Virus record (IMG/VR): IMGVR_UViG_3300017747_001103
Location: 1 to 54,882 of that record
DNA length: 54,882 nt
Strand: one strand, 5' to 3'
From: a virus
Taxonomy: Duplodnaviria > Caudoviricetes
Shown here: positions 3,829-25,102 of the stretch, piece by piece
Numbering within the stretch: the first letter of the stretch is position 1
How the letters are laid out: every line of letters begins with the position of its first letter
Notes under the pieces: generated by a model
Told to the model about the DNA's origin: nothing
The model's input: only the letters and a program-made list of their open reading frames with translations
Database searches by the model: none
Position numbers and translations under genes: made by a program

Positions 3829-3833
3829 GCACT

Positions 3834-6068: not shown

Positions 6069-6081
6069 CTCAAACCCCTGA

Positions 6082-6369: not shown

Positions 6370-6379
6370 GATGTCGCTT

Positions 6380-6442: not shown

Positions 6443-6449
6443 CCCCTTT

Positions 6450-7075: not shown

Positions 7076-7077
7076 AG

Positions 7078-10875: not shown

Positions 10876-10890
10876 GGCTTTCTCCAAACG

Positions 10891-10990
10891 AAAAAAGCCC
10901 TAGGCGAGACTCTCACCAATTAAGGTGTTGGCAGACTGGAAGGTACCAGCAGAGTCCCGTCTAGGGCTTACCTTAACTGCGCTGCCAAGC
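10891..10990 (-). ncRNA. C4/CI-like antisense RNA (cloverleaf terminator with upstream complementary sites)
   Basis: 19-bp closing stem 10951-10969/10895-10913, then a U run. Internal UACCUU loop and CUGCCAA linker are complementary to AAGGUA and UUGGCAG just upstream. Confidence 0.7.
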
Positions 10991-11003
10991 GCTTTGGAGT
11001 TAA

Positions 11004-11207
11004 TCATACACCGAATATGTCAGGTCGTAAAATCTTGCGGCTGACTTTACGTTTGGTATATTCCGAAATAGCCCTAGCCAATGCAGGCGAAGGCAATTTT
11101 TTCCCAGCAATAATAAGGCTAAGCCAAGTTTTACTTATCCCCAAGGTTTTAGCCATAGCTGCTTTCGACCCATGAGGTTGTTCAGTAAAAAAATCGTTTA
11201 AATTCAT
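11004..11207 (-). CDS. Cro/YdaS-like HTH regulator
   Basis: KAAMAKTLGISKTWLSLII...LRPDIF; first gene at the divergent promoter. Confidence 0.85.
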   Translation of the reverse strand: MNLNDFFTEQPHGSKAAMAKTLGISKTWLSLIIAGKKLPSPALARAISEYTKRKVSRKILRPDIFGV

Positions 11208-11230
11208 AACAAACCTTTCGTTAATGCCAT

Positions 11231-11292
11231 ATTAAACCATGACAGAATTTTTAACGCAAGGTATTGTAAGTGCAAATTAAATGATATAAGAT
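11231..11292. promoter_or_regulatory. Divergent sigma70-like promoters
   Basis: Plus strand: TTGTAA (11264), 17 bp, TAAGAT (11287). Minus strand: TTGCGT (11259), 17 bp, TGn-TTTAAT (11236). Confidence 0.6.
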
Positions 11293-11318
11293 GCAAAAAA
11301 TTAAGGAGGAGTTACACA

Positions 11319-11546
11319 ATGGAGAAAAAGGACGAGGTTAAATATTACGTAACTAAGGCTGGCATCAAGATCGGCAGTTACTACGAGAAGAAACCTACAA
11401 AAGACTTAACGTATGACATGGAGATTATTCAGTTAGCAATACTTAATGACCAAGGTTCTATCCGTCGTGAAAAGCTTAGGCGCATAGGAACTATGTTAGC
11501 TGTATGTGGTTTTCTTTTTGCTCTTATGTTAATAACTAAAAATTGA
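11319..11546 (+). CDS. Small membrane protein
   Basis: SD AAGGAGG; C-terminal TM helix; TKAGIKIG motif. Confidence 0.75.
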   Translation: MEKKDEVKYYVTKAGIKIGSYYEKKPTKDLTYDMEIIQLAILNDQGSIRREKLRRIGTMLAVCGFLFALMLITKN

Positions 11547-11553
11547 GGAATTT

Positions 11554-11730
11554 ATGGACAGCGAATATCATCAAGCGAATTTAGAGCGACAGCAGCAACT
11601 AGAAGAGGCGCTACGGCGTGCAGTGAATCATATGGCCACTGATGATGACTGGGCCATCATCTACTACGAATGTGGTTTGAAAGCCCAACAAAGGAAAGCA
11701 AATGAGTCTAATAGCGAAAGCAGAATCTAG
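11554..11730 (+). CDS. Hypothetical 58-aa protein
   Basis: Manual translation MDSEYHQANLERQQQLEEAL...WAIIYYECGL; GAGG SD. Confidence 0.6.
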   Translation: MDSEYHQANLERQQQLEEALRRAVNHMATDDDWAIIYYECGLKAQQRKANESNSESRI

Positions 11731-12346
11731 CGGCGGGTCGTTTACCCCTGTTCCACCCGGTCTTCACCTTGCTCGGTGTTATCGGATTATTGACATGGGC
11801 ACCCAAAAATCTACGTACATGGGTCAAGAGAAGCACTTGCGAAAGATCATGGTTCAGTTTGAAGTTCATTCAATTGATGACGATGGGAACCCCCTGTTAA
11901 CTGACAAGGGTGAGCCACTGTCTATATCTAAGAACTACACCTTGTCTCTTAATGAGAAGGCAAACTTATCCGTTGACCTAGAGTCATGGAGGGGCATGGC
12001 CTTTACTGCAGACGAGCGCAAAGGTTTTGAGTTGAAGAAGCTTCTAGGCGTTTGGGCAATGATCTCTGTGGCTAAGTCTACAGGTCATGATGGTAAGGAA
12101 TACACCAACATCAACAACATCAACCCAGTGCCTGCCAACATTAAGAAAGCAGGCTTACCCGATCCCCACAACGAAGCAAAACTCTTTAGTCTTGAAGAAC
12201 CAGACATGCCAATGTTTGAAACCTTTGGTAATAAGCTTAAAGAGAAGATTGGCAACAGCCCTGAATGGCAACGCAGTCAAAGTAAACAGGGCAAAAATAA
12301 AACTACTGATTCGTTTGACGATGCGTTAGACGACATAGATTTTTAG
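11702..12346 (+). CDS. Putative ssDNA-binding protein
   Basis: FTPVPPGLHLARCYRIIDMGTQ OB-like start; acidic tail ending DDIDF. Confidence 0.7.
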   Translation: MSLIAKAESSGGSFTPVPPGLHLARCYRIIDMGTQKSTYMGQEKHLRKIMVQFEVHSIDDDGNPLLTDKGEPLSISKNYTLSLNEKANLSVDLESWRGMAFTADERKGFELKKLLGVWAMISVAKSTGHDGKEYTNINNINPVPANIKKAGLPDPHNEAKLFSLEEPDMPMFETFGNKLKEKIGNSPEWQRSQSKQGKNKTTDSFDDALDDIDF

Positions 12347-12355
12347 GAGACAGTA

Positions 12356-12595
12356 ATGGCCCCAGCACACACACTGTTTGATTTCTTAAAGACGGAGTAC
12401 AACATTCCATCTGATAGGCGGTTGTGTGAGGCTTTGGGGCTCAAGCCTCCAGTGCTTAGTAAGATCAGGCATGGTGTTATTGGTATTAGTGGTGACATCA
12501 TGATTCTGATTCATGAGAAGACTGGAATGACTATAGCGGATATTAAAGAACTCATTAGCGAAAATGGAAAAACAAATACTGTCACTTCTGTTTAG
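12356..12595 (+). CDS. XRE-family HTH protein
   Basis: SDRRLCEALGLKPPVLSKIRHG. Confidence 0.75.
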   Translation: MAPAHTLFDFLKTEYNIPSDRRLCEALGLKPPVLSKIRHGVIGISGDIMILIHEKTGMTIADIKELISENGKTNTVTSV

Positions 12596-13355
12596 CCTGA
12601 TTACATCATCATCACAACCAGAGTGGCATCGAGGGGAGGCAATAGAATCATTTGGCCCTGACGTGTCAGAGCGTGCTGCGTGTATGGCTGCAGAGAATAA
12701 AGCGATCTTTAGCGTAGTAAGACAAGTAGCAGGCGAAGCTGTATCAACGTCTCAATACCAGCTGTGTAACGAAGCAAGCGAGGAAGTATGCCAAATGCTT
12801 ATCTCGTCTACGTCATACACAGAGGGCATGGTGACTGGCATGCGAAAGTTGAGTACAGAGGTATCAGGATCAAGCATACGGTCTTGTAAAGTTGCTGTAG
12901 AGGTAGCTCTTACTAAAGACAGTGGGAAGTCTGACATTGGGTTTGACCCAGAAATACGGGTATCTAAAACTCAGTTACGGGAAGGTGAACTATTCAAAGT
13001 AATAGTCAATCCAACCCAGCCAATGTTTTTAAACCTGTTTTACTTTTCACCGTATCTTGAGCGTCATGAGCAAGTGCAGTTTCTGTATCAGTTTGAAGAA
13101 GTAATTACTAGCAAGGTAGAGCTTCCTGATCTTCCATTAGTTCTTTGGGCGACTTTTCCAAAGACTAAAGTTAACGGGAACATAGCAGGCGAAGTAATGA
13201 TTGCAGTTGCAACAAAACGGCCAATCTCATTTAGGAAGACATTCTCTTTAGCAGAGTTTAACCAGAGAATTCAAGAGATCCCGAAAAGCGAAAGAAGAGT
13301 CGTCAGAATGCCTTACCTAGTGTGGGCTAAAGACAAGAGCCATAAACTTCAATAG
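12564..13355 (+). CDS. Putative secreted protein (LPP20/FlgT-N-like domain plus DUF4384-like domain)
   Basis: Hydrophobic N-terminus; LREGELFKVIVNPTQPMFLNLF and GEVMIAVATK Ig-like pattern. Confidence 0.55.
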   Translation: MEKQILSLLFSLITSSSQPEWHRGEAIESFGPDVSERAACMAAENKAIFSVVRQVAGEAVSTSQYQLCNEASEEVCQMLISSTSYTEGMVTGMRKLSTEVSGSSIRSCKVAVEVALTKDSGKSDIGFDPEIRVSKTQLREGELFKVIVNPTQPMFLNLFYFSPYLERHEQVQFLYQFEEVITSKVELPDLPLVLWATFPKTKVNGNIAGEVMIAVATKRPISFRKTFSLAEFNQRIQEIPKSERRVVRMPYLVWAKDKSHKLQ

Positions 13356-13366
13356 AGAGAATTACC

Positions 13367-13945
13367 ATGAAAAAATTATTAGCGTGGATTTGCCTTATTA
13401 CTTTAGTTGGTTGTAGTGTGTTTAAGACTGAAGCTCAAAGTGCTAAAGAAGACATAAAAAAAGAAGTCGCCAAACAGATAGACCAGATACCTGATTGGTA
13501 TCTAAAGCCCCCCAAAGATGCTGATGCCCTGTATGAGAAGGCTGCAGCTAAGTCCCGTGATGTCCAAATGGCTGTTACTAAAGCCACCATGCTTGCTAAA
13601 TCTCAGTTAGCTATCACCATCCAAGGTGAAGTCAATTCCATTATGAAGTTGTTTATGGAAGAGAACGGCCCTACTAGTGGGGCTCAGGTATCTAACAACG
13701 TATCTATAGCCACTGTCCAAGAAGCACTCAAAATGCGTATGAATGGCGTTCAAGAAGAGAAGACACAGATATTCCAAGAGGGTGATAAGTACGTTGCCTA
13801 TGTCCTTTTGAAGTACCCACTGGGTGATATGAATAAGCTAGTGGTTGATCAGATACGTCAGGACGATGCCGTCAACTCTAAGGTTAGATCAGATGAGGCG
13901 TATGACGAAATTGAGCGCAAGATTCAAGATCGAAATAAAAAATAA
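13367..13945 (+). CDS. Lipoprotein, LPP20-like
   Basis: MKK, hydrophobic stretch, lipobox LVGC; IPDWY; A..KA...AK.QLA. Confidence 0.75.
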   Translation: MKKLLAWICLITLVGCSVFKTEAQSAKEDIKKEVAKQIDQIPDWYLKPPKDADALYEKAAAKSRDVQMAVTKATMLAKSQLAITIQGEVNSIMKLFMEENGPTSGAQVSNNVSIATVQEALKMRMNGVQEEKTQIFQEGDKYVAYVLLKYPLGDMNKLVVDQIRQDDAVNSKVRSDEAYDEIERKIQDRNKK

Positions 13946-14367
13946 TGTCTCGTCCTATGTATGAAAACAACAAAGACCTAGCCAACGAAAAAGAAGTGGC
14001 GGGTCTTCTGTCAGCCAAAAATGGCTACGTATTTTATAAACTAAAAATTGCCTATCACGTTGACTGGCTAATTATGGAAAAGGGCAAGCCAAAGTATGTT
14101 GCTGAAATTAAACGCAGGCTTAATCCTAGTAATCAATACCCAACTCTTATGCTGTCATTACAGAAATGGATGAAGGGTAAAGAGATGGCTGCAGAAATGA
14201 AAATACCGTTTGTCTTGATTATTAAATGGGATGACGGAGTGTTTTTTTATAAGGCAGGCAGCTCAGAAGTTACTTATGGGTTTGGCGGCAGGTACGACAG
14301 AGAAGATTCACAAGACCAAGAGCCAATGGTTTTTATTCCAGTACATAAATTTAAGAGGATTTTATGA
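13945..14367 (+). CDS. PD-(D/E)xK nuclease
   Basis: VDWL...AEIKRR. Confidence 0.75.
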   Translation: MSRPMYENNKDLANEKEVAGLLSAKNGYVFYKLKIAYHVDWLIMEKGKPKYVAEIKRRLNPSNQYPTLMLSLQKWMKGKEMAAEMKIPFVLIIKWDDGVFFYKAGSSEVTYGFGGRYDREDSQDQEPMVFIPVHKFKRIL

Positions 14368-15128
14368 TTGCGAAAGAACACGCCGCAGAGTCTGGTCATT
14401 GGTATACCCGTGAAGGGGATCCGATGTACACAATCATGGGCAAGAGCACAGGCAAACTGAGAAACACTACCTTGCGGGATGCCAGAGAACTAAACCTAGT
14501 CCCATCAGTCAGTGGGATCATTAACGTAGCAGCCAAGCCAGCTCTTACGGTGTGGTTGCAAGAGCAGGCAATTCTTGCCGCTTTGACTCTACCAAGGGGT
14601 GAAGATGAGCTTGAGTCAGTCTGGCTAAAGCGCGTCCTGTCAGATTCTAAGCAGCAGGGCAGGGATGCAGCCGATCTAGGCACAGAGATCCACGCAGCCA
14701 TACAGGGCTTCTACGAGGGTCGTACAGCTTCTAAGTACCCACACCATGTCGATAGCTGCAAAAAGGCCATAGAAGCCTTCTACGGGGCTCGTAGCTGGGT
14801 CTGTGAGAAGTCTTTCTCTCATGAGCTAGGGTTTGGTGGGAAATGCGACATGTTTAAAGCTGACGGCGATGGAATAGTCATAGACATCAAGACTAAGGAC
14901 TTTAAAGACCTGTCTAAGCCTTTGGCATACGACGAGCACATGCTACAGCTCGCCGCTTACCGAGCAGGTCTAGGGCTACCTAGTGCTAAGTGTGCAAACG
15001 TCTTTGTGTCTCGGAATAACCCAGACTTGGCTCATGTCCACGAATGGGCTGAGGAAGACATTCAGAAGGGCTGGAAGATGTTCCAGAATTTACTTAACTA
15101 CTGGCAGCTTAAAAACAACCATGAATAA
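14364..15128 (+). CDS. PD-(D/E)xK exonuclease
   Basis: PSVSGII, GTEIH, GGKCD, IDIKTK, QLAAY. Confidence 0.88.
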   Translation: MIAKEHAAESGHWYTREGDPMYTIMGKSTGKLRNTTLRDARELNLVPSVSGIINVAAKPALTVWLQEQAILAALTLPRGEDELESVWLKRVLSDSKQQGRDAADLGTEIHAAIQGFYEGRTASKYPHHVDSCKKAIEAFYGARSWVCEKSFSHELGFGGKCDMFKADGDGIVIDIKTKDFKDLSKPLAYDEHMLQLAAYRAGLGLPSAKCANVFVSRNNPDLAHVHEWAEEDIQKGWKMFQNLLNYWQLKNNHE

Positions 15129-15632: not shown

Positions 15633-16472
15633 TTATTTCTTAAATCGTTTATACATCTCAGCCGCGGGGACAGACAGTAAAGACAACGCCCCACCACCTA
15701 ACCTAGTGGCAGGATGGGGGATTAAAGAAGCCGCAGAACCAAGCGCTCCAACGCCGTAAATAGCCGCCAAGGGGTAATCTCCCTTTTGGTATGCTTCGTA
15801 GGCTTGTGCGCCCTCTAAACCAGCCCCAGCACCCATTAACGTGCTACCTAGAGGAACCTTGCCTAGCATCCTTGTGGCAGTTTTAGCGCCTTCAGCTAAC
15901 TTATTCTTAGATGCCAACTCTTCTGCCAGCTTCTTCTGTTCAGCCCAGCCCTCGATGCCTAACTGTCTACCGGGGGAAATCTTGCTACTGATCTTGCCCT
16001 TATTCTTAGCACGCTCATAAGCCTCAGCTACCTCTTGAACAGTATAGCCCTCACCCTTGCCGTAACCTGTCTTTGACATCCATTTCTGACCGGGTGCGCG
16101 GGAATCTACAACTTGGGGAGCTTTAGCAGCGTTAACTTCTCTACGACCTGCCTCCATACCAATCGTAGCTCCAGTAGCTATGCCAGCTTGCTGAGTAGGT
16201 GACAAGGCTTGTATGTCACGGATCATGCTAGGTTCAGCAGCAGTAGGCTTTGAAGGCGTAGCAGGGGCTGCTGGAGACACGTCAGAGAATGATGAGTCAG
16301 CAGGCGCTTCAGGCTCAGCTAAACCAGCTGCTTCAATGATGGCGTGTTGAGTCTCTGCGTTAGCATTAGCAAACTCAGGTGTTTTAGCTACAAACCTAGA
16401 AAAAATAACGCGCTTAGTCTCAAGGTTTGCGTTTATGTAATCAGGGTCATCTAAAATAGCTTCAGCGCCCAT
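15633..16472 (-). CDS. Putative internal virion/ejection protein
   Basis: Last late gene; Gly/Ala-rich hydrophobic C-terminal helices. Confidence 0.55.
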   Translation of the reverse strand: MGAEAILDDPDYINANLETKRVIFSRFVAKTPEFANANAETQHAIIEAAGLAEPEAPADSSFSDVSPAAPATPSKPTAAEPSMIRDIQALSPTQQAGIATGATIGMEAGRREVNAAKAPQVVDSRAPGQKWMSKTGYGKGEGYTVQEVAEAYERAKNKGKISSKISPGRQLGIEGWAEQKKLAEELASKNKLAEGAKTATRMLGKVPLGSTLMGAGAGLEGAQAYEAYQKGDYPLAAIYGVGALGSAASLIPHPATRLGGGALSLLSVPAAEMYKRFKK

Positions 16473-18394
16473 TATTGACTCCCCATCTTTTTCTTAAACT
16501 TATTAACAACATTCATGTCTACGCCGGGTGGTTGATTCTGATCTAAAGAAACATTACCAGACGAAGAGGATCTACTAGGCGCAACACCCGCTGGACGATT
16601 AGCAGGGGTGTTAAATTTCTCACCGGGGAAATGGACTGCCATAATCTTTTTAAGCTTGGCGTCATAACCGTCTAACAAGCGGTTGTACTCTTTTGAATCT
16701 TCATAATCTGAGAAGTTCTTCTTCGCATTTTCAGGACGACGCTCCCACTCACGAAGCATACGAGCTGCAGCTGCATCTAACTCTGCACGAGCCTTAGTCA
16801 TCTCAGCCTTAGCTTGAGCAGCACCGGGGCTGTCAGACAAGTCACCAGAGAATCTTGGGATAACAGCACCCTCCATGTTCGACACAGAGCCTTGGCCAGA
16901 CAAGAACATCTTACGGAAACCAAGCTCATTCTGAGCAAAGATTCGAGCCGCAACCAATGACGCTTTAATTTCATCGTCGGTAGCGCCAGCGTTCCTAAGA
17001 GCTTTCTCAACAGACGGAACACTAATCGAATAATTGCCTACTCTAGCTCCCTCAGAAATTACTGTTCCTAAAGCATTTAAAATGCCGGGCTTAGCAAAGA
17101 ATCCAAAAATTTCTTTAGTCTTTGGATCTGTAGCCAACTGAATAATTTGTTCAGAGTTTTGGATAAGCTGACGAGATGCACGAGACGAATCAAACAATGC
17201 TTCACGGGTAGCCTCAGAAGCTTCAACACGCTTTTCACCACGCTTTGTCTCAGTTGCTTGTTCAAGAGATTCCTGTGACTTAGATTTAGGTAATGTGCTT
17301 TCAGTAGTAGTACCTGCAGCTGTAGTGCCTGTTCCTTTAATCTTAAATAGTCTGTTAATGTAATCGTCGCCCTGACCCTTACTATCAGCCTCCATGTACT
17401 CAAGGTATTGAGCAGGCGTAAAGGGGAGCTTGCGTGAATTACCGCCATACGAAACTGTGTATTCTTTTTGCTCACCGTACTTAGCTTTTTCAGCTTCTGT
17501 AGCCTTGGCTTTTAATCCTTCAAGTTCTGTGGCTGTAGCTAAACGCATACCGCCGGGTACTGTCTTATCTTCAATGAAGTTAAAGGGAACATTGATCCGT
17601 CTATAAAAATCCTTTAACCCTTCAATGTTTCCAGAACTAGCCAAAGTTTGCATTTCCTGCACTTCGTCTGGATACAAGAATCGTTTTTCACCAGCAATAA
17701 TAAATTCTTCTCGGCTCTTACGGCGCTCTTCACGAAGCTTCATTTCTGCATCAGCTACTGGCTTTAAATCTGGATCCATCGACATAATAGCCAACTGGGC
17801 GTCAGAAATATTAGGCAGTAATCCACCTTCACCACGAGCTCTGGTAGGTCTTGCTACGGGCTGTGCAACTGGCTGAGCTGCAGGTTGGGCTGCAGGTTGT
17901 GCCTCACCAGCTACAGGGGCTGCTACAGGGGCAGCAACTGGCGTAGCTTTAGCAGCCATAGGAGCATTGCCCTGCTGAAGCCTCATCAACATCTCAGGAA
18001 TTGCAGCAGCCTTCCTGTTTTTAATTGATTCAAGCTCCATCTCATACTGCAACTTGCCTAAAGCCTGTTGACGTGTAAATTCCTTTTCTTGCTCTTCAGC
18101 CGCAGCTGTAGTTCCATAACCTAAAGACTCACCAAAAGATCCTGTCTTTGTAGGCGCAAGCATTCCACCAGCAAATCTCATTAACGTAGGGTCAAACATG
18201 CGCTTTTGAGACAATTGCAAAAGTTGGTCACGACGTGAATCAAGAGCTCGTTGACCAGCAAGAGCCCTATCTTTTGAATCTTTTAACATTGACGCAAAAA
18301 CGTCTTCGGATTGTGTTTTTTGTTGCGCCTCCATTTCTGGTGGCACAGTTGCACCTTCAGCTGTTGCTTGTGAAAGTGGGCCTAAATTTGCCAT
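16472..18394 (-). CDS. Putative DNA ejection protein
   Basis: Helical; MLAPTKTGSFGESLG motif; position after tail genes. Confidence 0.6.
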   Translation of the reverse strand: MANLGPLSQATAEGATVPPEMEAQQKTQSEDVFASMLKDSKDRALAGQRALDSRRDQLLQLSQKRMFDPTLMRFAGGMLAPTKTGSFGESLGYGTTAAAEEQEKEFTRQQALGKLQYEMELESIKNRKAAAIPEMLMRLQQGNAPMAAKATPVAAPVAAPVAGEAQPAAQPAAQPVAQPVARPTRARGEGGLLPNISDAQLAIMSMDPDLKPVADAEMKLREERRKSREEFIIAGEKRFLYPDEVQEMQTLASSGNIEGLKDFYRRINVPFNFIEDKTVPGGMRLATATELEGLKAKATEAEKAKYGEQKEYTVSYGGNSRKLPFTPAQYLEYMEADSKGQGDDYINRLFKIKGTGTTAAGTTTESTLPKSKSQESLEQATETKRGEKRVEASEATREALFDSSRASRQLIQNSEQIIQLATDPKTKEIFGFFAKPGILNALGTVISEGARVGNYSISVPSVEKALRNAGATDDEIKASLVAARIFAQNELGFRKMFLSGQGSVSNMEGAVIPRFSGDLSDSPGAAQAKAEMTKARAELDAAAARMLREWERRPENAKKNFSDYEDSKEYNRLLDGYDAKLKKIMAVHFPGEKFNTPANRPAGVAPSRSSSSGNVSLDQNQPPGVDMNVVNKFKKKMGSQ

Positions 18395-18396: not shown

Positions 18397-19374
18397 TTAC
18401 CTCACCAAGTTGCCGCTTGCATCATAAAAATTACCCTGACCATCATGGTAAGAAGCACCAGCAGGAATGTTTGAAGTAGCTGAAGGAGCCTCAGAACGAA
18501 TAGCACCACCCTCAGCTTGTTTAGTAACCGCAGATGGGCTCAATGTAGTCGTAGAGCCGGGGCTTGCAAATGAACCTAAAGCAGCCAGCAACCCAGTAAT
18601 CTGCGATAACGGGCTGTTTGTATATCCTGTAGAACCAACAGTCTGCTTAATTTCACCTGTAGGAATATTCAACCCTTGCATCAACTTAGAGTAGTTCTGA
18701 GCTGCAGTCATTGGGTAGTCGAGTTGCTTTTGACCTAAAGCCTGCTCTTGGCTGCCTAAGTCATACAAATTTTTCATACCAGAAGTTGCCGCTTGTTGCT
18801 GCTGTGAGCCCAAGCCACCTAAAACCTGACCTGCCTGCATTTGACGGTTAAGGTCAGCTTGGGCAGCCGTCATAGCGTTACCGTAGCCAGTATTTAAAGC
18901 GCTGTACTGCTGACCCATTAAATTAGATTGCATGTCTCTCAGCATGTTGCCAGTAGCATTGAACTGACGCTGTGATCCAAAAGAGCCCATGCCACCCGCT
19001 GCGCCTTGCATTGCAGGCAGAAGGTTTTCATTAATCTGCCGACCCTGCAAACGGCCCATCTCGTCCACCACATTTTGGGTGTACGGGTTCATGTAGTTGC
19101 CTACAATCTGATTAGCGCCTGTAGTGCCAGACTGAGCAGCCAAGTCAGCGCCTGCGCCCATAGTACCAAGACCAGAAAAAGCAGTCTGTGGAGCCATTGA
19201 CATAGCCTGTTGTTGCAGAGGTGAGAACCCAGCAACACCACCCATCTGAACGCCTGCCTGACCTAAGTTAGCTATGTCCTGAAGGTAATTAGTATAGAAC
19301 TCAGGCGCTGTCGTCTGAGCTTGGGCGGTACTAGTAATTGACGGTAGTACATCACCTTGGAAAATATCAGCCAT
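18397..19374 (-). CDS. Putative ejection/pilot protein
   Basis: Q/G/A-rich; VAGFSPLQQQA, YMNPYTQNVV, GSFGSQR. Confidence 0.65.
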   Translation of the reverse strand: MADIFQGDVLPSITSTAQAQTTAPEFYTNYLQDIANLGQAGVQMGGVAGFSPLQQQAMSMAPQTAFSGLGTMGAGADLAAQSGTTGANQIVGNYMNPYTQNVVDEMGRLQGRQINENLLPAMQGAAGGMGSFGSQRQFNATGNMLRDMQSNLMGQQYSALNTGYGNAMTAAQADLNRQMQAGQVLGGLGSQQQQAATSGMKNLYDLGSQEQALGQKQLDYPMTAAQNYSKLMQGLNIPTGEIKQTVGSTGYTNSPLSQITGLLAALGSFASPGSTTTLSPSAVTKQAEGGAIRSEAPSATSNIPAGASYHDGQGNFYDASGNLVR

Positions 19375-20578
19375 TTTTGTTGCTCCTCGATTGAGCTGCC
19401 TTCATATATGCCAAGGGTGACTTAGCTGGTGGAGGTATTTTGTTAACAGGAGCCGAGCGCTTATGGGCTCGGATTTCTTCACGAAACTTGTCTAGTAGGT
19501 CGGAACCTGCCTTAGTTGACCCGTTACCCAACTGAGCAACAGTATCAGCATCAAACACGTACTCACCATCTGCAAGCATTGCAGGTATATCGTCAGACTG
19601 ACCATCGCCTTCACCTGTAACACGAGATCCATTACGGTAGTCATGACGACCCTCTACAACAGGAACGTGCAAGCCACCCTGCTTAGCTTCGCCGCCTTGT
19701 GCCATCTGATTAAGAATGTCCTGTGGGTTAACCACCTGACCAAACGTGTAATAGCTAGGGGCTTGAGCCTCACCACCGTCAGCCATTAAAGGCGTAGCCA
19801 TGCCGCCGTCTTTGAGCGTCCATACGCTAGGATAAGTAATGTTGTTTGATGTGTTTTGATTAGCTGCGGCATTAGTAGATTGAGTGTTTGTAGACCCTAA
19901 ATTAGTATATGAGCTTGGGTTGCTTCCACCAAGCCAATTAGTAAAAGAAGAGACTCCGGGGATTGCTTTCAAGAAACTACTTATGCCACTACCAGCACTA
20001 GATCCTAAATTGGTTAACCCTTGAATTGCATTATTAGTAGCATTAGAAGATGCATAGTCTTTACTCTCAGGCATGATGTAGCCCAACGCAGCACCTAAAA
20101 GAGCGCCCGTCATTGGGTCAATCGTATTCTCACCACGAGGCGTAATCGTTGGGTTAAATTGGGTATTTCTCCCAGTGCCTGCAGATGTGATTGACTGAGG
20201 TTGGGCATTCATCGCCATTTGAGGACGTGCAGTATATTGAGACAATGCGCCTTGCTGACCCATCCCCATAGGAATGCCTAACGCCCTTGCTAGTTCTGGC
20301 GTGATGTTTGGCTGTGTATCCCTAGCACCATATTCAGCATAAGGAACATAACGCCCAGTAGGAATTTGCGTCGTTCTAGGCGCAATATTCCCAACCTTGG
20401 TCATATCTACGCCCTGATTAACACCGCCGGGCGGTTCAATAGACGTCAGCAATTTGCTCATCAGAGCGCCAAGAGCAGCTCCTTTAGCCGTATTGCTGCC
20501 CATAAGACCCGTTAACGAGCCAAGCCAGTCTGTGCTTGAAGTTACTGCTGGGGCTGCTGTTGGGGTTGGATCTGCCAT
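19367..20578 (-). CDS. Putative internal virion protein with C-terminal GxGDGxSDxIPAxLxxGEYV domain
   Basis: GEGDGQSDDIPAMLADGEYVFDADTV, preceded by four xxxGG motifs. Confidence 0.65.
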   Translation of the reverse strand: MADPTPTAAPAVTSSTDWLGSLTGLMGSNTAKGAALGALMSKLLTSIEPPGGVNQGVDMTKVGNIAPRTTQIPTGRYVPYAEYGARDTQPNITPELARALGIPMGMGQQGALSQYTARPQMAMNAQPQSITSAGTGRNTQFNPTITPRGENTIDPMTGALLGAALGYIMPESKDYASSNATNNAIQGLTNLGSSAGSGISSFLKAIPGVSSFTNWLGGSNPSSYTNLGSTNTQSTNAAANQNTSNNITYPSVWTLKDGGMATPLMADGGEAQAPSYYTFGQVVNPQDILNQMAQGGEAKQGGLHVPVVEGRHDYRNGSRVTGEGDGQSDDIPAMLADGEYVFDADTVAQLGNGSTKAGSDLLDKFREEIRAHKRSAPVNKIPPPAKSPLAYMKAAQSRSNKNG

Positions 20579-20587
20579 AATTTTTCC

Positions 20588-23500
20588 TTATTGCCGTATA
20601 GAAACTAAACCACCACGCCTAGCTATTTTGGTACTAGAACGAGCAGCTATTTCTTCTGGTGTCATCATCGTAAACGAAACTGGGTATAAATCACCAATTG
20701 GACGTTTTGCCAACGGTGTGGTTACTGCTGTATAGCCTGCGGGGACTTGACTTAATCCACCTGTTGACACTTTACCACTACCAAAAGCCCCCGCCAATGC
20801 TGCTAAAACGCCTGTTATATCTGATTTGTTGTCAGTAGTAGTAGTGACTGGGGGTGTTACTGGCGGCGTAACAGGTGGAACATTCGGAGTTACGGTAGTA
20901 GGCGTAGTAACAGGAGTAGTAGTTACCGGTGTACTAGGGATTGCATTAACAGGCGGCGTAATAGGAATTAAATCGGTTATTGGTTTTGTAACAGGGGCTG
21001 GTTGTGTTGCAGCCGTTGTTTCAGTTTTAGGTACTGTTTGTGTTGCTGGAGTTGTCTCAGTTTTAGGTACTGTCTCTGTTTTAGGTGCTGTCTCAGTTCC
21101 CGGTGTTGTTGTAGGCGCTGTTGTTGGCACCGTTTCAGGCATTGTTGTAGGCGTAGTAGTAGGTGTAGTCGCTGGCGTTGTAGTAGGCGTTGTTGTTGGT
21201 GTTGTAGCAGGTGTTGTTGTTGGTATAGTAGTAGGCAGTACATAAGGCACAAAAGAAGGAGGTACTGCTGGATTTTTTACAGGCGCTGTTGTTGTATTTG
21301 GCAAAATTGTTGGCACAGTTGATGGATATTCTGGAGCAACTAAAGGCGTAACATTTGGTGGCACAAAGTTTTGCACCGCAGGGTTTCCATATTGGTCGTA
21401 CAGCGTGCCTGATTTATCAACATATAAACCAGAACCTTTTCCATCTTGTAATATTAACTGGCCATCTTTGCTAATAGATTCACCGGGAAGAATTTTTGTA
21501 AAAAGTTCAGGTACGTTATATTTCGCAACAACTTCAACAGGAGATAATTTTTTTGTATAGTCGTAAGTACCATCAGCAATTGGACTTAAAAATTGCTTCA
21601 TTTTTTCAGCCATTATTTGGTCTTCGTTTGTATTTTGACCAATATTGCCCGGTGTAACCATTGAAGCTATACCAACTAATCCATCTGCTAACGTATACAT
21701 ACCAGCCTGCCTCAATGCTTGTATGCTTGATTCAGTAGTAACGCTTCTTGCATACAAAGGGTCATTAGCAGCAGCTTGTAACATGCTTTGAGCTACTTTT
21801 TCTTGAGCCGCTCTTGTTAACTGCTGAATGTTTTCTGCAGTTACAGGCATAGCTTGAGCAACATCAATTTTTACTGATGGGTCAGCGTATGCTGAGTAAA
21901 TCATGTCTTTAATTTCAGTTGGAGTGTCGCTAGATAATTCTGGTGAGCGCAAAGTAATTAAATCTGATTTATCTGGTGTTGGTTCTGGGTATCTTGACCG
22001 CTCTACAATAGTAGCGGTTCCGGGGCCATCTACTTTTCCTGCAGCCTCACCAGCTTTTGCAGCACCAGTAATAATAGCCGGTGCAGCATTTTTAAGCGCC
22101 TCAGCAACATCACCACCATTAATAAGGGTCTGAGTAGCGATGTTTGATACGTTGCCTGCAGCGTTGACTGTTGCAGCTATAACTTTAGGGTCAGCACCTT
22201 TTACAGCGTCATAGACTAAATTTTGAGCCTGAGTGCCAACATACTGACCAGCTAAGCTAGTAGCTGCATTTTCTAAAGCGTTAGGGTCGCCAAGCACAGT
22301 ACCAGTAACGCCAACAGTAACGGCGTTAGCCAACATGTTAGTAACTTGCTGTGAGCTTGTGTTGGTTGCACGAGCAATTGCTTCTACTTTGCTTTGATCA
22401 ATACCAACCCTATTAAGAAGCTGCGTAGAGTTTCCTGCAAGTGCTGGGCCAACCGCACCAGTTAATGCCGCCTGACCTATATCACCGCCAGTAAGCCCTG
22501 ACGTAACCATATTTTGTATTGCGCCAGAAAGCATACTTACACCAGTAGCGCCAATAGTCTGAGCAAGCGTTACTGCAGGCACTCCCATTGTGAATGCCGT
22601 AGGAGCAACCGCAGCGCTTACTTGAATACCTCCAATGGCGCTGTTTAACATCCCACCTAATTGGGGGGCAAAAACCATCGCCGCCATTTGAATTAACGGC
22701 ATAAGCTCAGCCAACTGCCCTGACGCACCTGCGTGGTGTACTCGCTCCCCTTCGTAATAATTTACTATTGGCTCATTCTTCTCATTAAGAACAGGAGTAA
22801 GCACACCACTTTCGTTTGCCTTATATAAAATACCAGCATGGGGGGTGGCTTTGTTAGCACCTACATTTTCAATAGCATTAGCTACGTAGTAAAGGTCTTT
22901 TGTCTTTTCTGAAATGTCTGCATACAGAGCTTTTGTATCTAATGCTTGTTCAAATTCTTTTGTTTTTGGGTTTATTCTTGCTAGGTAAGTCTCACCAGTG
23001 CGCGGGTTTGTATATTCTGCAGAATTTGCTGACGTTGGTTTTTCAACTTGGCCATAAGCATATCCAGCAGGAACAAATTTTATTGGCATGGTATAGCTAT
23101 CACCATCGAGTCCTATTTGTTTTGCTGCTGTTAAATAATCATTGTCTGTTGCTTTTAGTCCTTTTGAATTTACTATTCCTGTCGTTGTTGAGCCGATTCC
23201 ACCAGTTCCATCGTGGTACGAGCCTGTACTCAAACCAAGTATGGCTGGGCCTTGTAAAAGAAGAGCGCTGTCTGACATCATGTTCCAGCCTTCTTGAGCA
23301 AACGCTGCCCTAGCTTTCCCATTGCCTTTTACGTTATTGCCATATCTAGCAACTATCGAATCAAACTTATCTCTGTTAAGAAGAGGCAGTCCTGTTGTTG
23401 GGTCAATATTAGAAAATAAACTAGCGTCACCACCTTGGAGTGCCAACTGTCTTGCTTTTGCTGATGCTGGTGTTTCTGGTGTAGATACTTGAGTACCTTT

Positions 23501-25102
23501 AAATTCAATACCATCAAAGTGCGGAGTTATTTTGCTTTTTACGTCATCCGTAAAGTCACCAGCATCAATCAGTTTGTTAAATTCACCAAACAAAGATTTT
23601 GCAGCAGTAACGTCTGAAGCGCTTGAAATGTCAGCAAGGTTTTCTCTAAACTGTTTAGCATATCCAACAACATCATTTGCGTAAGCGTTGTACGTTTGAA
23701 GATCAGGCTCTATTCCCTGTAAATTTTCATTATATTTATTTTCAGCTGTTTGTACTAAACCACTTTTTTGAGCAACTACATTGTCTTGAGCTTCTACATT
23801 TTTATATGCGGCAGAAGATAATGTGTCAGCAATCCCACTAAGCTTGGAGCCATTAACATCAGAAACATCTCTAGCAGCAATAACTTTGGGATAGAAAGCG
23901 TCACCAAGTTTATTCTCAATGGTTCCCATTGCCCTTTCAGCTGATTCAACATTAGCTTGGGCTACTGATTTGGCTACGTCTTTTGCTTTGTCTGCTTCAG
24001 ACTGAATTGAATCACGAGTTTCTCTTGTGGTGTCTACTAACCTTTGTGCGTTGTCATGATATTGGTTACGGGTGTTTTCTTCTTTTTCTCTAAGCGTGTT
24101 GTAATTTTTTTCAGCATTTTCACGAGCAGTGTTAGCTTTTTGTTCAGATTCTTGTTTTACTCGATTAAGTTCTCTTTCCGCATTATCACGAGATTGCGCT
24201 TGGCTTTGAATTTTATTATTTGCGTCACGCTCAACCTCTTCGCGTTTTTTATTTGCATTGCTTTGAGCAGTCTCAAAAGCTCGTTCTGCTTCAATTTTTT
24301 TATTAACTAAAGAATCCCATGAAGAGCCAGAACGGATTTCTGCATTATCTATTCTGTTTTCTGCTTCACGAAGGCCATTGCGTTTGTTTTCAATTTCACG
24401 TAGTGCGTCTTGATAACCGCCATTATCATTTAAGTGACGACCAGAATTTTTCCAGTTATCAAGGTCATTAAGTTTGTTTTGAGCTTCGTTAAACGTGTTA
24501 CGTTTATTATCGTAATCAGAGTTGTCTCTGAGATAATTTTCGTTCTCTGCTTTTTCTTTTGCTTTGTTGTATATTTCTTGAGAACCACGCAAATTGTTAA
24601 GTAGGTCTTGATACCCAGAATTTTGTTTTAAATAATTAACATTGTCATAGTCATGGACTGCCTTGTTATAGGCATCGTTAGCTTTACCTGACTTATCTAA
24701 AGTTGCTTTATATGCGTCACTCTCTTCAAACCATTTATTTGAATTTAAAAATGAATAAGCAGAGTTATATTTATCACGCGCAGATTTGTACTCTGAGCTG
24801 TCTTCTAAATATTTTCTATTGTCTAAAATGTCTTTAAGGTTTTTGTAATTTTCCAAAGACTTATTGTATGTATCTTTTACGGTATTGTAAGAATCTACGT
24901 TTAGGTAAGTTTTGTTTTCATAATCATTACGAATATTTTTTAATTTATTAGACTCATCGTTAAGAATTGATTTTAAATTATTGATTCCATCTTCAAGAGA
25001 CTTAAGACTACCTTTAGCCGAGTTGTACTTAGCCAAAGCAGACTTTGCCTTAGTGACGGCATTTTTAATATCATCAAGTTTTGGTAAGCCAGCAACTGCC
25101 AC
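20588..25102 (-). CDS. Large (1504 aa) putative internal virion/ejection protein
   Basis: N-terminal coiled-coil repeats, Gly/Ala-rich middle, Pro/Thr-rich tail, C-terminal RRGG. Confidence 0.65.
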   Translation of the reverse strand: MAVAGLPKLDDIKNAVTKAKSALAKYNSAKGSLKSLEDGINNLKSILNDESNKLKNIRNDYENKTYLNVDSYNTVKDTYNKSLENYKNLKDILDNRKYLEDSSEYKSARDKYNSAYSFLNSNKWFEESDAYKATLDKSGKANDAYNKAVHDYDNVNYLKQNSGYQDLLNNLRGSQEIYNKAKEKAENENYLRDNSDYDNKRNTFNEAQNKLNDLDNWKNSGRHLNDNGGYQDALREIENKRNGLREAENRIDNAEIRSGSSWDSLVNKKIEAERAFETAQSNANKKREEVERDANNKIQSQAQSRDNAERELNRVKQESEQKANTARENAEKNYNTLREKEENTRNQYHDNAQRLVDTTRETRDSIQSEADKAKDVAKSVAQANVESAERAMGTIENKLGDAFYPKVIAARDVSDVNGSKLSGIADTLSSAAYKNVEAQDNVVAQKSGLVQTAENKYNENLQGIEPDLQTYNAYANDVVGYAKQFRENLADISSASDVTAAKSLFGEFNKLIDAGDFTDDVKSKITPHFDGIEFKGTQVSTPETPASAKARQLALQGGDASLFSNIDPTTGLPLLNRDKFDSIVARYGNNVKGNGKARAAFAQEGWNMMSDSALLLQGPAILGLSTGSYHDGTGGIGSTTTGIVNSKGLKATDNDYLTAAKQIGLDGDSYTMPIKFVPAGYAYGQVEKPTSANSAEYTNPRTGETYLARINPKTKEFEQALDTKALYADISEKTKDLYYVANAIENVGANKATPHAGILYKANESGVLTPVLNEKNEPIVNYYEGERVHHAGASGQLAELMPLIQMAAMVFAPQLGGMLNSAIGGIQVSAAVAPTAFTMGVPAVTLAQTIGATGVSMLSGAIQNMVTSGLTGGDIGQAALTGAVGPALAGNSTQLLNRVGIDQSKVEAIARATNTSSQQVTNMLANAVTVGVTGTVLGDPNALENAATSLAGQYVGTQAQNLVYDAVKGADPKVIAATVNAAGNVSNIATQTLINGGDVAEALKNAAPAIITGAAKAGEAAGKVDGPGTATIVERSRYPEPTPDKSDLITLRSPELSSDTPTEIKDMIYSAYADPSVKIDVAQAMPVTAENIQQLTRAAQEKVAQSMLQAAANDPLYARSVTTESSIQALRQAGMYTLADGLVGIASMVTPGNIGQNTNEDQIMAEKMKQFLSPIADGTYDYTKKLSPVEVVAKYNVPELFTKILPGESISKDGQLILQDGKGSGLYVDKSGTLYDQYGNPAVQNFVPPNVTPLVAPEYPSTVPTILPNTTTAPVKNPAVPPSFVPYVLPTTIPTTTPATTPTTTPTTTPATTPTTTPTTMPETVPTTAPTTTPGTETAPKTETVPKTETTPATQTVPKTETTAATQPAPVTKPITDLIPITPPVNAIPSTPVTTTPVTTPTTVTPNVPPVTPPVTPPVTTTTDNKSDITGVLAALAGAFGSGKVSTGGLSQVPAGYTAVTTPLAKRPIGDLYPVSFTMMTPEEIAARSSTKIARRGGLVSIRQ
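20830..21300 (-). repeat. Pro/Thr-rich coding tandem repeats (PTTT; ETVPKT)
   Basis: 12-nt and 18-nt periodicity. Confidence 0.85.

What the first reader, a model, noticed from the sequence alone, without database searches (positions are those of the whole stretch)
19380..19830. Candidate GG-processing domain: tape-measure-type GxGxGxSDxIPAxLxxGEYV module in a podovirus-like internal protein
Seen: four GG motifs immediately precede a compact C-terminal domain, HDYRNGSRVTGEGDGQSDDIPAMLADGEYVFDADTVAQLGNGS. Established, from memory: a similar (F/Y)AxGG...G...GE(F/Y)V segment lies near the C-terminus of siphovirus tape-measure proteins such as lambda gpH, which is proteolytically matured. Inference: this domain, with Ser/Asp/Glu as potential catalytic residues, may be the self- and trans-acting peptidase or reader for the genome-wide GG tags.
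Basis: inference. Interest (0 to 1): 0.75.

Follow-up and report, generated by a model that had tools for sequence, protein, structure and literature searches.

The report
Tape-measure-type module in podovirus ejection protein
The conserved end of an internal protein of a short-tailed phage carries the motif found near the end of tape-measure proteins of long-tailed phages; it is real and very widespread, but nothing shows that it is the protein-cutting enzyme first proposed.

Summary
Window 19380-19830 is the C-terminal ~150 aa of a 403-aa ORF (19367-20578, minus strand), with four conserved GG dipeptides followed by RHDYRNGSRVTGEGDGQSDDIPAMLADGEYVFDADTVAQLGNGS.

- **Context:** the genome is a complete podovirus-type virus record. 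The gene lies in a post-tail "ejection protein" cassette that is syntenic in other aquatic podoviruses.
- **Distribution:** the module matched 7949 50%-identity clusters. It ended within 10 aa of the C-terminus in 361 of 362 stored homologs. It has no Pfam or NCBIfam model.
- **Tape-measure link:** it matches five PHROG tape-measure families and the Douge tape-measure protein. Lambda gpH shares only a motif-level resemblance that is not significant.
- **Peptidase idea:** not supported. There was no peptidase family hit, both AlphaFold2 models were low-confidence, the proposed Ser is Glu in the HTVC023P ortholog, a second tandem core copy in MW202545 lacks the Ser-Asp part, and phage GB2A has the module without GG-rich proteins. 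An AxGG element lies just upstream of the core in every lineage examined, so it reads better as part of the module than as its substrate.
- **Best reading (about 0.45):** a non-enzymatic docking or anchoring module of a tape-measure-like ejection protein.
- **Open rival:** a processing-site cassette, because the known T5 pb2 cleavage site directly precedes AEGG.

The parts
19367..20578 (-). 403-aa ORF (p403), a putative tape-measure-like ejection or internal virion protein. It is the first conserved gene of the post-tail cassette.
   Evidence: The ORF is listed. 1559 near-length homologs were found at E<=1e-3, all unnamed or 'hypothetical'. Synteny is shown.
20441..20530 (-). N-terminal Gly/Ala-rich amphipathic segment (aa 17-46, DWLGSLTGLMGSNTAKGAALGALMSKLLTS). 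It is glycine-zipper-like.
   Evidence: Sub-threshold Pfam Gly-zipper_YMGG match, E 0.015. AlphaFold2 predicts helices at 17-25 and 29-46. It is among the most hydrophobic 15-aa windows of the protein. G33, A34, G37, L39 and L44 are at least 90% conserved.
20075..20116 (-). Second Gly-zipper-like hydrophobic segment (aa 155-168, PMTGALLGAALGYI).
   Evidence: This is the most hydrophobic window of the protein. AlphaFold2 predicts a helix at 155-168. P155, G158, L160, G162 and G166 are at least 90% conserved.
19670..19813 (-). GG-motif region (aa 256-303) with four [AK]xGG elements and a conserved PSYYT(F/Y)G element.
   Evidence: Sequence. Conservation. Enrichment is 4 observed against 0.9 expected. 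317 of 362 stored homologs have at least one [AK]xGG in the 80 aa upstream of the core.
19517..19648 (-). Acidic core of the module (aa 311-354): Y-R-x-G-S-x-V, then GxGxGxSDDIPAxLxDGE(Y/F)V, then xDAxxVAxLGNGS.
   Evidence: PHROG tape-measure hits fall on aa 308-374. Douge and JBD30 tape-measure proteins match here. Invariant columns are listed. Net charge of aa 306-355 is -7.
19370..19513 (-). Basic, predicted helical C-terminal tail of the module (aa 356-403). It ends the protein.
   Evidence: AlphaFold2 predicts helices at 356-374 and 388-399. Net charge is +7. The module ends within 10 aa of the C-terminus in 361 of 362 homologs.
18397..19374 (-). Downstream 325-aa gene. Its start overlaps the stop of p403, and it is the conserved neighbour of the module gene.
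   Evidence: ORF. Homologs lie downstream of the module gene in GB2A (E 1e-27), MW202545 (3e-17), HTVC023P (2e-8) and MinM2 (2e-6), but not in DSL-LC04. It has a weak match to phrog_4287 'DNA ejection protein', E 0.0013.
15633..18394 (-). The last two genes of the cassette (640 aa and 279 aa).
   Evidence: ORFs. No family hits. The position corresponds to genes of 435-645 aa followed by a lytic or DNA-transfer protein in relatives.
20588..25102 (-). Upstream 1504-aa protein with Thr/Pro-rich repeats that ends ...IARRGGLVSIRQ.
   Evidence: Sequence. No family hit.

Best explanation
The region is the constant C-terminal module, about 95-150 aa, of the first protein of a podovirus ejection (internal virion) protein cassette.

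The protein is built like the distal end of a tape-measure protein:
- Gly-zipper-like hydrophobic helices;
- a low-complexity linker;
- AxGG elements;
- an acidic Gly-rich stretch ending in a probable strand-turn-strand (IPAMLA-DG-EYVF);
- a basic helical tail that ends the chain.

I read the module as a non-enzymatic docking element. It would take its final shape only on a partner and tether an extended, metastable polypeptide that is destined for ejection. The partner would be the exit end of the virion (nozzle or portal channel) or the co-conserved 325-aa neighbour. The variable N-terminal part would leave the virion and act on the cell envelope.

What is shown: the module's existence, its conservation, its position at the C-terminus, its synteny and its sequence kinship with some tape-measure families.

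What is inferred: that the protein is in the virion, that it is ejected, and that the module works by docking.
For: **C-terminal position and variable N-terminal part**
- The module ends within 10 aa of the C-terminus in 361 of 362 stored homologs, whose lengths run from 70 to 1572 aa.
- 50 of the 120 listed longer homologs carry a different N-terminal domain, PF13946.
- A constant end on variable bodies is what an anchor or packaging handle would look like.

**Fixed gene position**
- In GB2A and MW202545 the adaptor, 418-aa and 758-aa tail-gene homologs lie upstream of the module gene.
- The cassette after the module gene ends in a lytic, SLT or 'DNA transfer' protein in GB2A, MW202545 and DSL-LC04.
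- In MinM2 the cassette is followed by a very large protein annotated RelA/SpoT.
- A homolog of the 325-aa protein lies downstream in 4 of the 5 relatives tested.

**Tape-measure kinship**
- 5 PHROG tape-measure families match.
- Douge gp16 matches at E 1.1e-5 and JBD30 gp46 at E 0.21.
- In the six PHROG profiles that matched (five tape-measure families and one family of unknown function) the motif lies at about 59-94% of profile length.

**Literature on the matched tape-measure segment**
- In the passages read of PMC11445458, JBD30 residues 1022-1066 overlap the matched 1000-1056. The authors predict a hook of two helices and a beta-hairpin there and propose that it anchors the protein in the baseplate. 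They liken it to the T5 pb2* C-terminus, seen in the crevice of the opened hub.

**No independent fold or enzyme signature**
- AlphaFold2 gave mean pLDDT 56.8 (68-row alignment) and 54.6 (96 rows). The core stayed below 50 while the flanking helices formed.
- No family matched more than 2 of the 68 members scanned.

**Conservation pattern across lineages**
- Across six podovirus lineages plus lambda, only G324, G338, V341 and G351 are invariant.
- That is a turn-and-hydrophobic pattern typical of a binding hairpin, not of an active site.
Against: - No partner was identified and no structure exists for the motif in any phage. Only the last 33-42 residues of the JBD30 and Douge tape-measure proteins are resolved.
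- In Douge the motif occurs twice, at 963-1006 and 1411-1451 of 1699 residues. Both sites are far from the end, which a simple terminal anchor does not explain.
- Within the window's clade the polar triad S-D-D is present in 342 of 362 homologs. Many charged residues are invariant. Conservation that strict could reflect metal binding or chemistry rather than docking.
- Presence of the protein in virions was not shown for any member.
- The last gene of the window's cassette has no recognisable lytic domain.
- Low AlphaFold2 confidence does not prove that a fold is absent.
Confidence: 0.45

Rival explanations
1. Processing cassette. The AxGG element plus the GE(F/Y)V core would mark, or themselves catalyse in cis, a maturation cleavage. 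That cleavage would separate a membrane-active N-terminal part from a C-terminal fragment that stays with the virion tip, as in lambda gpH -> gpH* + gpHC and T5 pb2 -> pb2* + pb2C.
For: - T5 pb2 is cleaved after R1127 (passages of PMC10038345). The translated gene reads ...NSFVPR then AEGGMMYPGVSYQMGEHGTEVV, so an AxGG element directly follows the only mapped site.
[quoted passage not shown] The site and the catalyst are both unknown (PMC12617516).
- By mass, a 14-kDa fragment puts the cut near residues 710-720, next to AIGG (707-710) and 14-27 residues before ATGG (737-740).
- AxGG elements precede the core in every lineage examined.
Against: - Homology of the module to lambda gpH and T5 pb2 is not significant.
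- No nucleophile is conserved across lineages.
- The stretches between the GG sites are themselves conserved, which is unlike linkers between cleavage sites.
- No cleavage data exist for any podovirus member.
Confidence: 0.15
2. Envelope-directed element. The module would bind or locally degrade peptidoglycan, or another host envelope component, once ejected. Muralytic activity was reported for the C-terminal region of T5 pb2.
For: - The motif is shared between long-tailed and short-tailed phages, whose exit structures differ. That fits a host target as well as a phage partner.
- Passages of PMC10038345 and PMC12617516 cite muralytic activity and a metallopeptidase motif in T5 pb2C.
- That region begins with AEGG...GEHGTEVV.
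- The module occurs in more than one copy in Douge gp16 and in MW202545.
Against: - The His-x-x-Glu of T5 (GEHGTE) has no counterpart in the module core.
- H312 and H372 are conserved only within the window's clade. They are absent from GB2A, DSL-LC04 and HTVC023P.
- No lysin, M15, M23, LysM or SLT family matched.
- PMC12617516 states that lambda virions contain no such enzyme.
- T5 similarity is not significant, E 0.35.
Confidence: 0.15
3. The module would be a self- and trans-acting peptidase, or a reader, for [AK]xGG tags carried by many virion proteins of this genome.
For: - The tags are real. [AK]xGG is enriched in the window, 43 observed against 18.5 expected.
- The enrichment is concentrated in three proteins: p403 (4 against 0.9), the 343-aa basic protein (14 against 2.2) and the 1508-aa pre-portal protein (7 against 1.6).
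- The same three orthologs are enriched in MW202545.
- No recognisable protease was found in the structural ORFs scanned, so the catalyst, if there is one, is unidentified.
Against: - No fold, pocket or peptidase family was found.
- The Ser is not conserved in HTVC023P gp79 or in the second MW202545 copy.
- GB2A has the module without tag enrichment, 10 against 9.3 and 6 against 5.8.
- Tape-measure proteins carry the motif in phages with no such proteome-wide tags.
- AxGG is an integral upstream part of the module.
Confidence: 0.04

Closest known systems
Internal motif of siphophage tape-measure proteins (Douge gp16, PDB 8zdo chain S; JBD30 gp46, PDB 8rk3 chain A; PHROGs 6090, 3547, 5448, 25241, 23013)
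   Same: The same sequence pattern, (Y/F)AxGG-x-x-GxGxGxSDxIxAxxSxGE(F/Y)-x-x-x-A-x-x-V-x-x-x-G, matched significantly. It lies in the C-terminal part of an extended, mostly unresolved protein destined for ejection.
   Different: Here it ends the protein instead of lying 100-700 residues before the end. The carrier is 403 aa in a tail-tube-less, podovirus-type genome, so it is not a length ruler. The AxGG position next to the core is degenerate (YRNGS), and extra AxGG copies lie upstream.
Lambda gpH C-terminal fragment (gpHC, the glycine-rich region)
   Same: It has FATGG...GEFVF...IGVGN...YATGG in the part of gpH that is cleaved off and unresolved (about 690-817). The order of hydrophobic Gly-rich stretch, motif and terminal helix is the same.
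   Different: The resemblance is at motif level only: hhalign E 0.029 and 0.056 over 22 columns, and no HMM hit. Lambda lacks the GxGxGxSD part. The Pfam and NCBIfam lambda models do not match p403.
T5 pb2 C-terminal region (pb2* hook and pb2C)
   Same: AEGG followed by GE-x-G-x-E-V-V lies next to the mapped maturation site. The pb2* end docks in the opened hub, which is the functional analogy used here.
   Different: There is no significant similarity, E 0.35. T5 has a His-x-x-Glu metallopeptidase-type motif that is absent here.
Podovirus ejection or internal core proteins (T7 gp14-gp16, P22 gp7/gp20/gp16)
   Same: The gene cassette follows the tail genes. The proteins are low-complexity and predicted to be largely unfolded. 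In relatives the cassette ends with an SLT or 'DNA transfer' protein.
   Different: No sequence match to those families was found. The only hint is a weak phrog_4287 'DNA ejection protein' hit of the neighbouring gene. The comparison with T7 and P22 rests on my recollection of their gene order, not on a call.

Membership tests
Tape-measure-type AxGG / GxGxGxSDxIxAxLxxGE(F/Y)V motif (no Pfam model; seen in PHROG tape-measure families) | Significant sequence match of the core to tape-measure profiles or proteins | tested here: met
   5 PHROG tape-measure families at E 4.9e-5 to 5.1e-3 on aa 308-374. Douge gp16 at E 1.1e-5 with two sites, and E 0.0036 with a profile.
Tape-measure-type AxGG / GxGxGxSDxIxAxLxxGE(F/Y)V motif | (F/Y)AxGG element directly upstream of the Gly-rich/SD core | tested here: inconclusive
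   The element is canonical in GB2A (MARGGYAV), DSL-LC04 (FANGGIA), MinM2 (YAEGGAL) and HTVC023P (YANEGGLA). In the window the adjacent position is YRNGS, and four [AK]xGG lie 10-55 aa upstream.
Tail length tape-measure protein (functional class) | Encoded in a long-tail module (tail tube gene, chaperone gene pair) and long enough to span a tail | tested here: not met
   The genome has an SU10-type adaptor. Its homologs are annotated as tail tubular protein A or adaptor in other phages. No tube, sheath or chaperone hits appeared in the ORFs scanned. Relatives HTVC023P and HTVC027P have podovirus morphology (passages of bioRxiv 10.1101/2019.12.14.876532).
Lambda-type tape measure (Pfam Tape_meas_lam_C PF09718; NCBIfam TIGR01541) | Match to the family model | tested here: not met
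   p403 has no hit. In gpH, PF09718 covers 627-701, upstream of the motif.
Podovirus ejection / internal virion proteins | Position in a conserved post-tail cassette ending with a lytic or DNA-transfer protein | tested here: met
   Met in relatives. In the window the cassette order is kept, but the last gene has no recognisable lytic domain.
Podovirus ejection / internal virion proteins | Presence in the virion and ejection into the host | not testable with these tools
   No proteomic or structural data were found for any member.
Peptidases (S24/S26 Ser-Lys, S74 self-cleaving chaperone domain, M14/M15/M23 metallopeptidases, C39, JAB) | Match to a peptidase family model or known catalytic motif | tested here: not met
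   No Pfam hit at E<=1 other than sub-threshold Gly-zipper and similar matches. No family matched more than 2 of the 68 members. NCBIfam gave nothing. hhalign against lambda cI gave probability 0.05%.
Peptidases | Catalytic residues conserved across all orthologs | tested here: not met
   S328 aligns with Glu in HTVC023P gp79 and is missing from the second tandem core of MW202545. E339 is Asp in MW202545 copy 1. Only four positions (three Gly, one Val) are invariant across lineages.
Peptidases | Globular fold with a pocket or groove | tested here: inconclusive
   AlphaFold2 gave pLDDT 56.8 and 54.6, with the core below 50. Foldseek against PDB gave 0 of 52 matches at E<=0.001. Low confidence does not prove that a fold is absent.

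The most novel reading that the evidence does not exclude
The bipartite AxGG + GE(F/Y)V unit is a conserved maturation cassette common to tape-measure proteins and podovirus ejection proteins.

Cleavage would occur at or beside an AxGG element, as mapped in T5 (R1127, then AEGG). The adjacent hairpin core would direct or catalyse it.

This would name the long-unknown determinant of lambda gpH -> gpH* processing. It would also imply that the extra AxGG elements in the 343-aa basic protein and the 1508-aa pre-portal protein of this phage are processing or docking sites of the same system.
Probability: 0.1. Interest if true: 0.75.

Novelty: new variant of a known kind. Interest (0 to 1): 0.4.

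Why it matters
- **Annotation.** The module matched 7949 clusters at 50% identity. It has no Pfam or NCBIfam model, and no solved structure covers it. It appears to be why podovirus genes get labelled 'tail tape measure protein' in the GB2A and DSL-LC04 records. Defining it as a family would correct those labels.
- **Evolution.** It gives a sequence-level link between the distal end of some tape-measure proteins and a podovirus ejection protein. The two groups have so far been treated as functional analogues.
- **An open question made testable.** The motif sits in the part of tape-measure proteins that is cleaved and unresolved. PMC12617516 says that both the site and the catalyst of gpH cleavage are unknown. 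[quoted passage not shown] A cultivable Caulobacter phage with the module at a protein end is a simple system for testing anchoring against processing.

Tried and rejected
1. **Homotrimer of aa 253-403** (complex prediction). The verdict was 'no answer', score 0.09 against a mark of 0.42, and controls were not run. This is not evidence either way.
2. **Foldseek of the low-confidence model against PDB**. 0 of 52 matches reached E<=0.001. This was expected to be meaningless.
3. **S24/S26-like reading of G-x-S-x-x-x-P-x-x-L-x-x-G-E-x-V.** hhalign against lambda cI gave E 0.82 with 1 aligned column. Rejected.
4. **Deep homology to lambda gpH and T5 pb2.**
   - hhalign gave E 0.029 and 0.056 for gpH and 0.35 for pb2.
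   - A narrow HMM gave no hit in the lambda H and T5 late-region loci.
   - A broader HMM built from 55 podovirus module sequences gave no hit in the same loci, among 1151 background ORFs.
   - Homology is therefore not shown.
5. **Reaching tape-measure-type relatives through the large searches.**
   - The listings were capped: the best 150 or best 120.
   - They showed only close podovirus-type relatives.
   - The genome-contig scan gave 5 loci from 102 pattern stretches, all on contigs titled as metagenome-assembled genomes.
   - So I could not count how many of the 7949 clusters are tape-measure proteins.
6. **ESM Atlas**. None of the 30 nearest clusters has a common Pfam family. The nearest named cluster, crAss_CARG1, scored 0.82, which is only a lead and was not followed.
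7. **Literature search for the motif strings.**
   - Searching 'tape measure protein' together with GEFV gave 0 papers.
   - Searching SDSIPA, GTGTSD, NGEFVV, DGEYV, SDDIPA and SDSVPA gave 4 papers, all irrelevant.
   - Only the held open-access library was searched.
8. **A protease for the GG tags.** No peptidase family turned up in the structural-block ORFs scanned. The ORFs at window 1-15128 were not scanned.
9. **Calcium-loop and metal-site readings of GEGDGQSDD.** Considered by eye only. The acidic residues are not kept in GB2A or DSL-LC04 (GPGTGRSDS, GPGTATSDS). Not pursued.
Full report
**What is there**

Window 19380-19830 lies inside one ORF, 19367-20578 on the minus strand, 403 aa.
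- four GG dipeptides (KDGG, ADGG, AQGG, KQGG; aa 258-302);
- an acidic core, RHDYRNGSRVTGEGDGQSDDIPAMLADGEYVFDADTVAQLGNGS (aa 311-354);
- a basic tail to the stop codon (aa 356-403).

Net charge is -7 for aa 306-355 and +7 for aa 356-403.

GG as such is not enriched in the protein, 6 observed against 5.7 expected. All four C-terminal GG do fit [AK]xGG, 4 against 0.9 expected. They are also conserved. In 96 homologs G295 and G296 are invariant, and G258, G259, G268, G269 and G302 are at least 90% conserved. The core is almost invariant.

**The phage and the gene's setting**

The window is a complete virus record with direct terminal repeats. Its recognisable genes are:

| Window coordinates | Assignment | Evidence |
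|---|---|---|
| 54056-54733 | terminase C-terminal domain | |
| 47022-49514 | portal | |
| 46237-46671 | GroES-like protein | |
| 43176-44090 | Mu-gpT-type capsid protein | |
| 28878-29507 | SU10-type adaptor, E 2.6e-27 | |
| 29569-30045 | endolysin | |

The adaptor's relatives are annotated as tail tubular protein A or adaptor in other phages. No tube, sheath or chaperone gene appeared among the ORFs scanned.

Capsid relatives include MW202545 (88% identity), the Caulobacter Riverwalk phages (76%), and pelagiphages HTVC023P and HTVC027P. The last two 'resemble podoviruses in morphology' (passages of bioRxiv 10.1101/2019.12.14.876532).

Gene order on the minus strand is adaptor, 418 aa, 758 aa, 1504 aa, the 403-aa protein, 325 aa (start overlapping its stop), 640 aa, 279 aa.

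The adaptor, 418-aa and 758-aa proteins and the 325-aa neighbour have homologs in the same order in GB2A and MW202545. In four phage lineages found by tblastn the module lies at the very end of the first cassette gene:
- 9 of 50,697 records matched, and each match covered only query residues 273-394;
- I examined one record per lineage: GB2A, MW202545, DSL-LC04 and MinM2;
- in GB2A, MW202545 and DSL-LC04 the cassette ends in a protein annotated as lytic tail protein, SLT-domain protein or DNA transfer protein.

A homolog of the 325-aa protein lies downstream in GB2A, MW202545, MinM2 and HTVC023P, but not in DSL-LC04.

**How widespread and how constant**

- A full HMMER scan of 1.84 billion cluster representatives gave 7949 proteins at E<=1e-3, 3120 at E<=1e-10 and 318 at E<=1e-30.
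- Word-indexed searches gave 1559 near-length relatives, 1284 longer relatives, and 4163 relatives of the DSL-LC04 type.
- All 362 stored homologs contain the module. It ends within 10 aa of the C-terminus in 361 of them. Their lengths run from 70 to 1572 aa, and 15 have two copies.
- Of the 120 longer homologs listed, 50 carry PF13946 upstream. I recall that accession as DUF4214.
- No Pfam family matched more than 2 of the 68 members scanned.
- NCBIfam gave nothing. The 30 nearest ESM Atlas clusters are viral and unnamed.

**Kinship with tape-measure proteins**

Residues 308-374 hit six PHROGs at E<=0.01. Five of them are 'tail length tape measure protein', at profile positions between about 59% and 94% of profile length.

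Against PDB sequences, the Douge tape-measure protein matches twice (963-1006 and 1411-1451 of 1699; E 1.1e-5). JBD30 gp46 matches once (1000-1056 of 1158; E 0.21). The aligned pattern is YAxGG-F-x-x-GxGTGxSDS-x-x-A-x-x-S-x-GEF-x-x-x-A-x-x-VA-x-x-G.

Neither segment is resolved. Only residues 1658-1699 of Douge and the last 33 residues of JBD30 are built (passages).

Lambda gpH does contain FATGG...GEFVF...IGVGN...YATGG. That lies in the cleaved, unresolved part, about residues 690-817. Statistically the link is not established:
- hhalign gave E 0.029 and 0.056 over 22 columns;
- neither my narrow nor my broader podovirus HMM hit gpH or T5 pb2;
- the lambda models do not match the 403-aa protein, and in gpH itself PF09718 covers residues 627-701, upstream of the motif.

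'Tape-measure-type' is therefore supported for some tape-measure families, but not specifically for lambda.

**The GG elements belong to the module**

The C-terminal sequences of the other lineages each show an AxGG element just before the Gly-rich/SD core:
- GB2A: NMARGGYAVKGPGTGRSDSIKANLSDGEYV
- DSL-LC04: TFANGGIA...GPGTATSDSIPAMLSDGEFV
- MinM2: NYAEGGAL...GPGDGMSDDIPAL, a 12-residue insert, then ADGEYV
- HTVC023P gp79: FYANEGGLA...FNQGGVNY...GVGDKDEDTMLAQLADGEFV

In the window the adjacent element is degenerate (YRNGS), and the recognisable copies lie further upstream.

**Tests of the peptidase idea**

1. No peptidase family matched. The superficial likeness to the Ser-Lys peptidases fails against lambda cI.
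2. AlphaFold2 gave no confident fold.
   - The 151-aa module with 68 rows gave pLDDT 56.8 and pTM 0.30.
   - The full length with 96 rows gave pLDDT 54.6 and pTM 0.24.
   - The core stayed below 50 in both.
   - Foldseek found nothing.
   - This is weak evidence, because a low score does not prove disorder.
3. The candidate catalytic residues are not conserved across lineages.
   - S328 aligns with Glu in HTVC023P gp79.
   - The second tandem core of MW202545 (PVPANIADGEYVFPASFVTALGGG) lacks the GxGxGxSD half.
   - E339 is Asp in MW202545 copy 1.
   - With lambda included, only G324, G338, V341 and G351 are invariant.
4. Co-occurrence is loose.
   - The window and MW202545 share [AK]xGG enrichment in three orthologous proteins.
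   - GB2A has the module without enrichment (10 against 9.3 and 6 against 5.8).
   - CRP-901 and QDWS535 have related capsids, but no module was detected in the stretches fetched (38.3 of 53.0 kb and 26.6 of 50.1 kb).

**What I think it does**

The protein has the layout of a tape-measure distal end. It has Gly-zipper-like hydrophobic helices (aa 17-46 and 155-168), a low-complexity linker, AxGG elements, the core, and a terminal helical tail.

The JBD30 authors predict a hook of two helices and a beta-hairpin for residues 1022-1066, which overlap the matched segment. They propose that it anchors the protein inside the baseplate. They liken it to the T5 pb2* C-terminus, which was seen docked in the crevice of the opened hub (passages).

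A constant C-terminal end on highly variable bodies, a fixed gene neighbour, and a turn-and-hydrophobic conservation pattern all fit a docking handle that folds on a partner. I give this 0.45. The docking step, presence in the virion and ejection are all inferences.

**What remains open**

- *Processing cassette, 0.15.* The T5 site after R1127 is directly followed by AEGG. The 14-kDa lambda fragment places the cut near 710-720, beside AIGG and just before FATGG. The lambda catalyst is unknown.
- *Envelope-directed or muralytic role, 0.15.* This rests on the reports for T5 pb2C. The T5 His-x-x-Glu is absent here.
- *Trans-acting GG peptidase, 0.04.*

One fact against the simple anchor is that the two Douge copies lie far from the protein's end. 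Another is that S-D-D is kept in 342 of 362 clade members, which hints at metal binding or chemistry.

**Limits**

- Result listings were capped at 120-150 rows. I could not count how many of the 7949 clusters are true tape-measure proteins.
- Supplementary figures were closed, including the JBD30 hook model and the T5 cleavage map.
- The early-gene ORFs at window 1-15128 were not scanned for proteases.
- The ORF sets used for the [AK]xGG statistics are my own greedy ORF calls, not curated genes.

Noticed in passing
window 41639-42670 (-): 343-aa, very basic, low-complexity protein two genes after the capsid gene. It has 20 GG (8.5 expected) and 14 [AK]xGG (2.2 expected), for example KKGG, FATGG, YATGG, YAAGG and MADGG. 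It ends ...KKRGGSAC. The MW202545 ortholog (449 aa) has 12 [AK]xGG (2.7 expected), the same N-terminus (MGQFKPMVKM) and a similar end (...RKRGGPAKC). No family hit.
   Followed up: partly
window 49527-54053 (-): 1508-aa protein directly upstream of the portal gene with 7 [AK]xGG (1.6 expected). It ends ...RFAKGGAAYNAI. Its only family hint is a weak PcfJ-like match at aa 1263-1311 (E 1.4e-4, below the cut-off). The MW202545 counterpart is 890 aa with 5 [AK]xGG.
   Followed up: partly
window 20588-25102 (-), 49527-54053 (-), 41639-42670 (-): Three large virion-block proteins end with a basic residue, then x-GG, then 3-6 more residues (IARRGGLVSIRQ, RFAKGGAAYNAI, KKRGGSAC). Whether these ends are processed or docked is unknown.
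   Followed up: no
L005 (phage T5, AY543070) 20122-23781 (-), pb2 residues 1122-1150: The published T5 pb2 maturation site (after R1127, PMC10038345) is immediately followed by AEGGMMYPGVSYQMGEHGTEVV. That is an AxGG element plus a GE...V element.
   Followed up: partly
L002 (MW202545) 7282-9201: The module protein of the closest relative has two tandem cores. The second lacks the GxGxGxSD half and resembles the lambda-type segment in form.
   Followed up: partly
L019 (HTVC023P) 6799-7749, gp79: A 316-aa divergent ortholog of the module protein in a cultured pelagiphage. It has Gly-zipper-like N-terminal segments, YANEGG and NQGG elements and an LADGEFV core. The record annotates it as hypothetical.
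   Followed up: yes
window 46237-46671 (-): GroES-like (Cpn10, E 4.2e-7) gene between the portal and capsid genes. Relatives carry an annotated co-chaperonin at the same place: CRP-901, HTVC023P, QDWS535 and MW202545.
   Followed up: no
window 38490-39563 (-): 357-aa protein with a sub-threshold F5/8 type C domain and a second, weak SU10-adaptor-like stretch (aa 210-311, E 5e-4).
   Followed up: no
window 20588-25102 (-): 1504-aa protein whose N-terminal third is Asn/Lys/Asp-rich with recurring N-Y-L-type repeats. Its C-terminal part has long Thr/Pro repeats (PTTTPATTP...). It has no homolog in the GB2A or MW202545 cassette loci.
   Followed up: no
records OR260089 (GB2A) and OR003939 (DSL-LC04): The module-bearing gene is annotated 'tail (length) tape measure protein' in these records. 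The records otherwise carry adaptor and stabilization-type tail genes. The label probably comes from this motif alone.
   Followed up: partly
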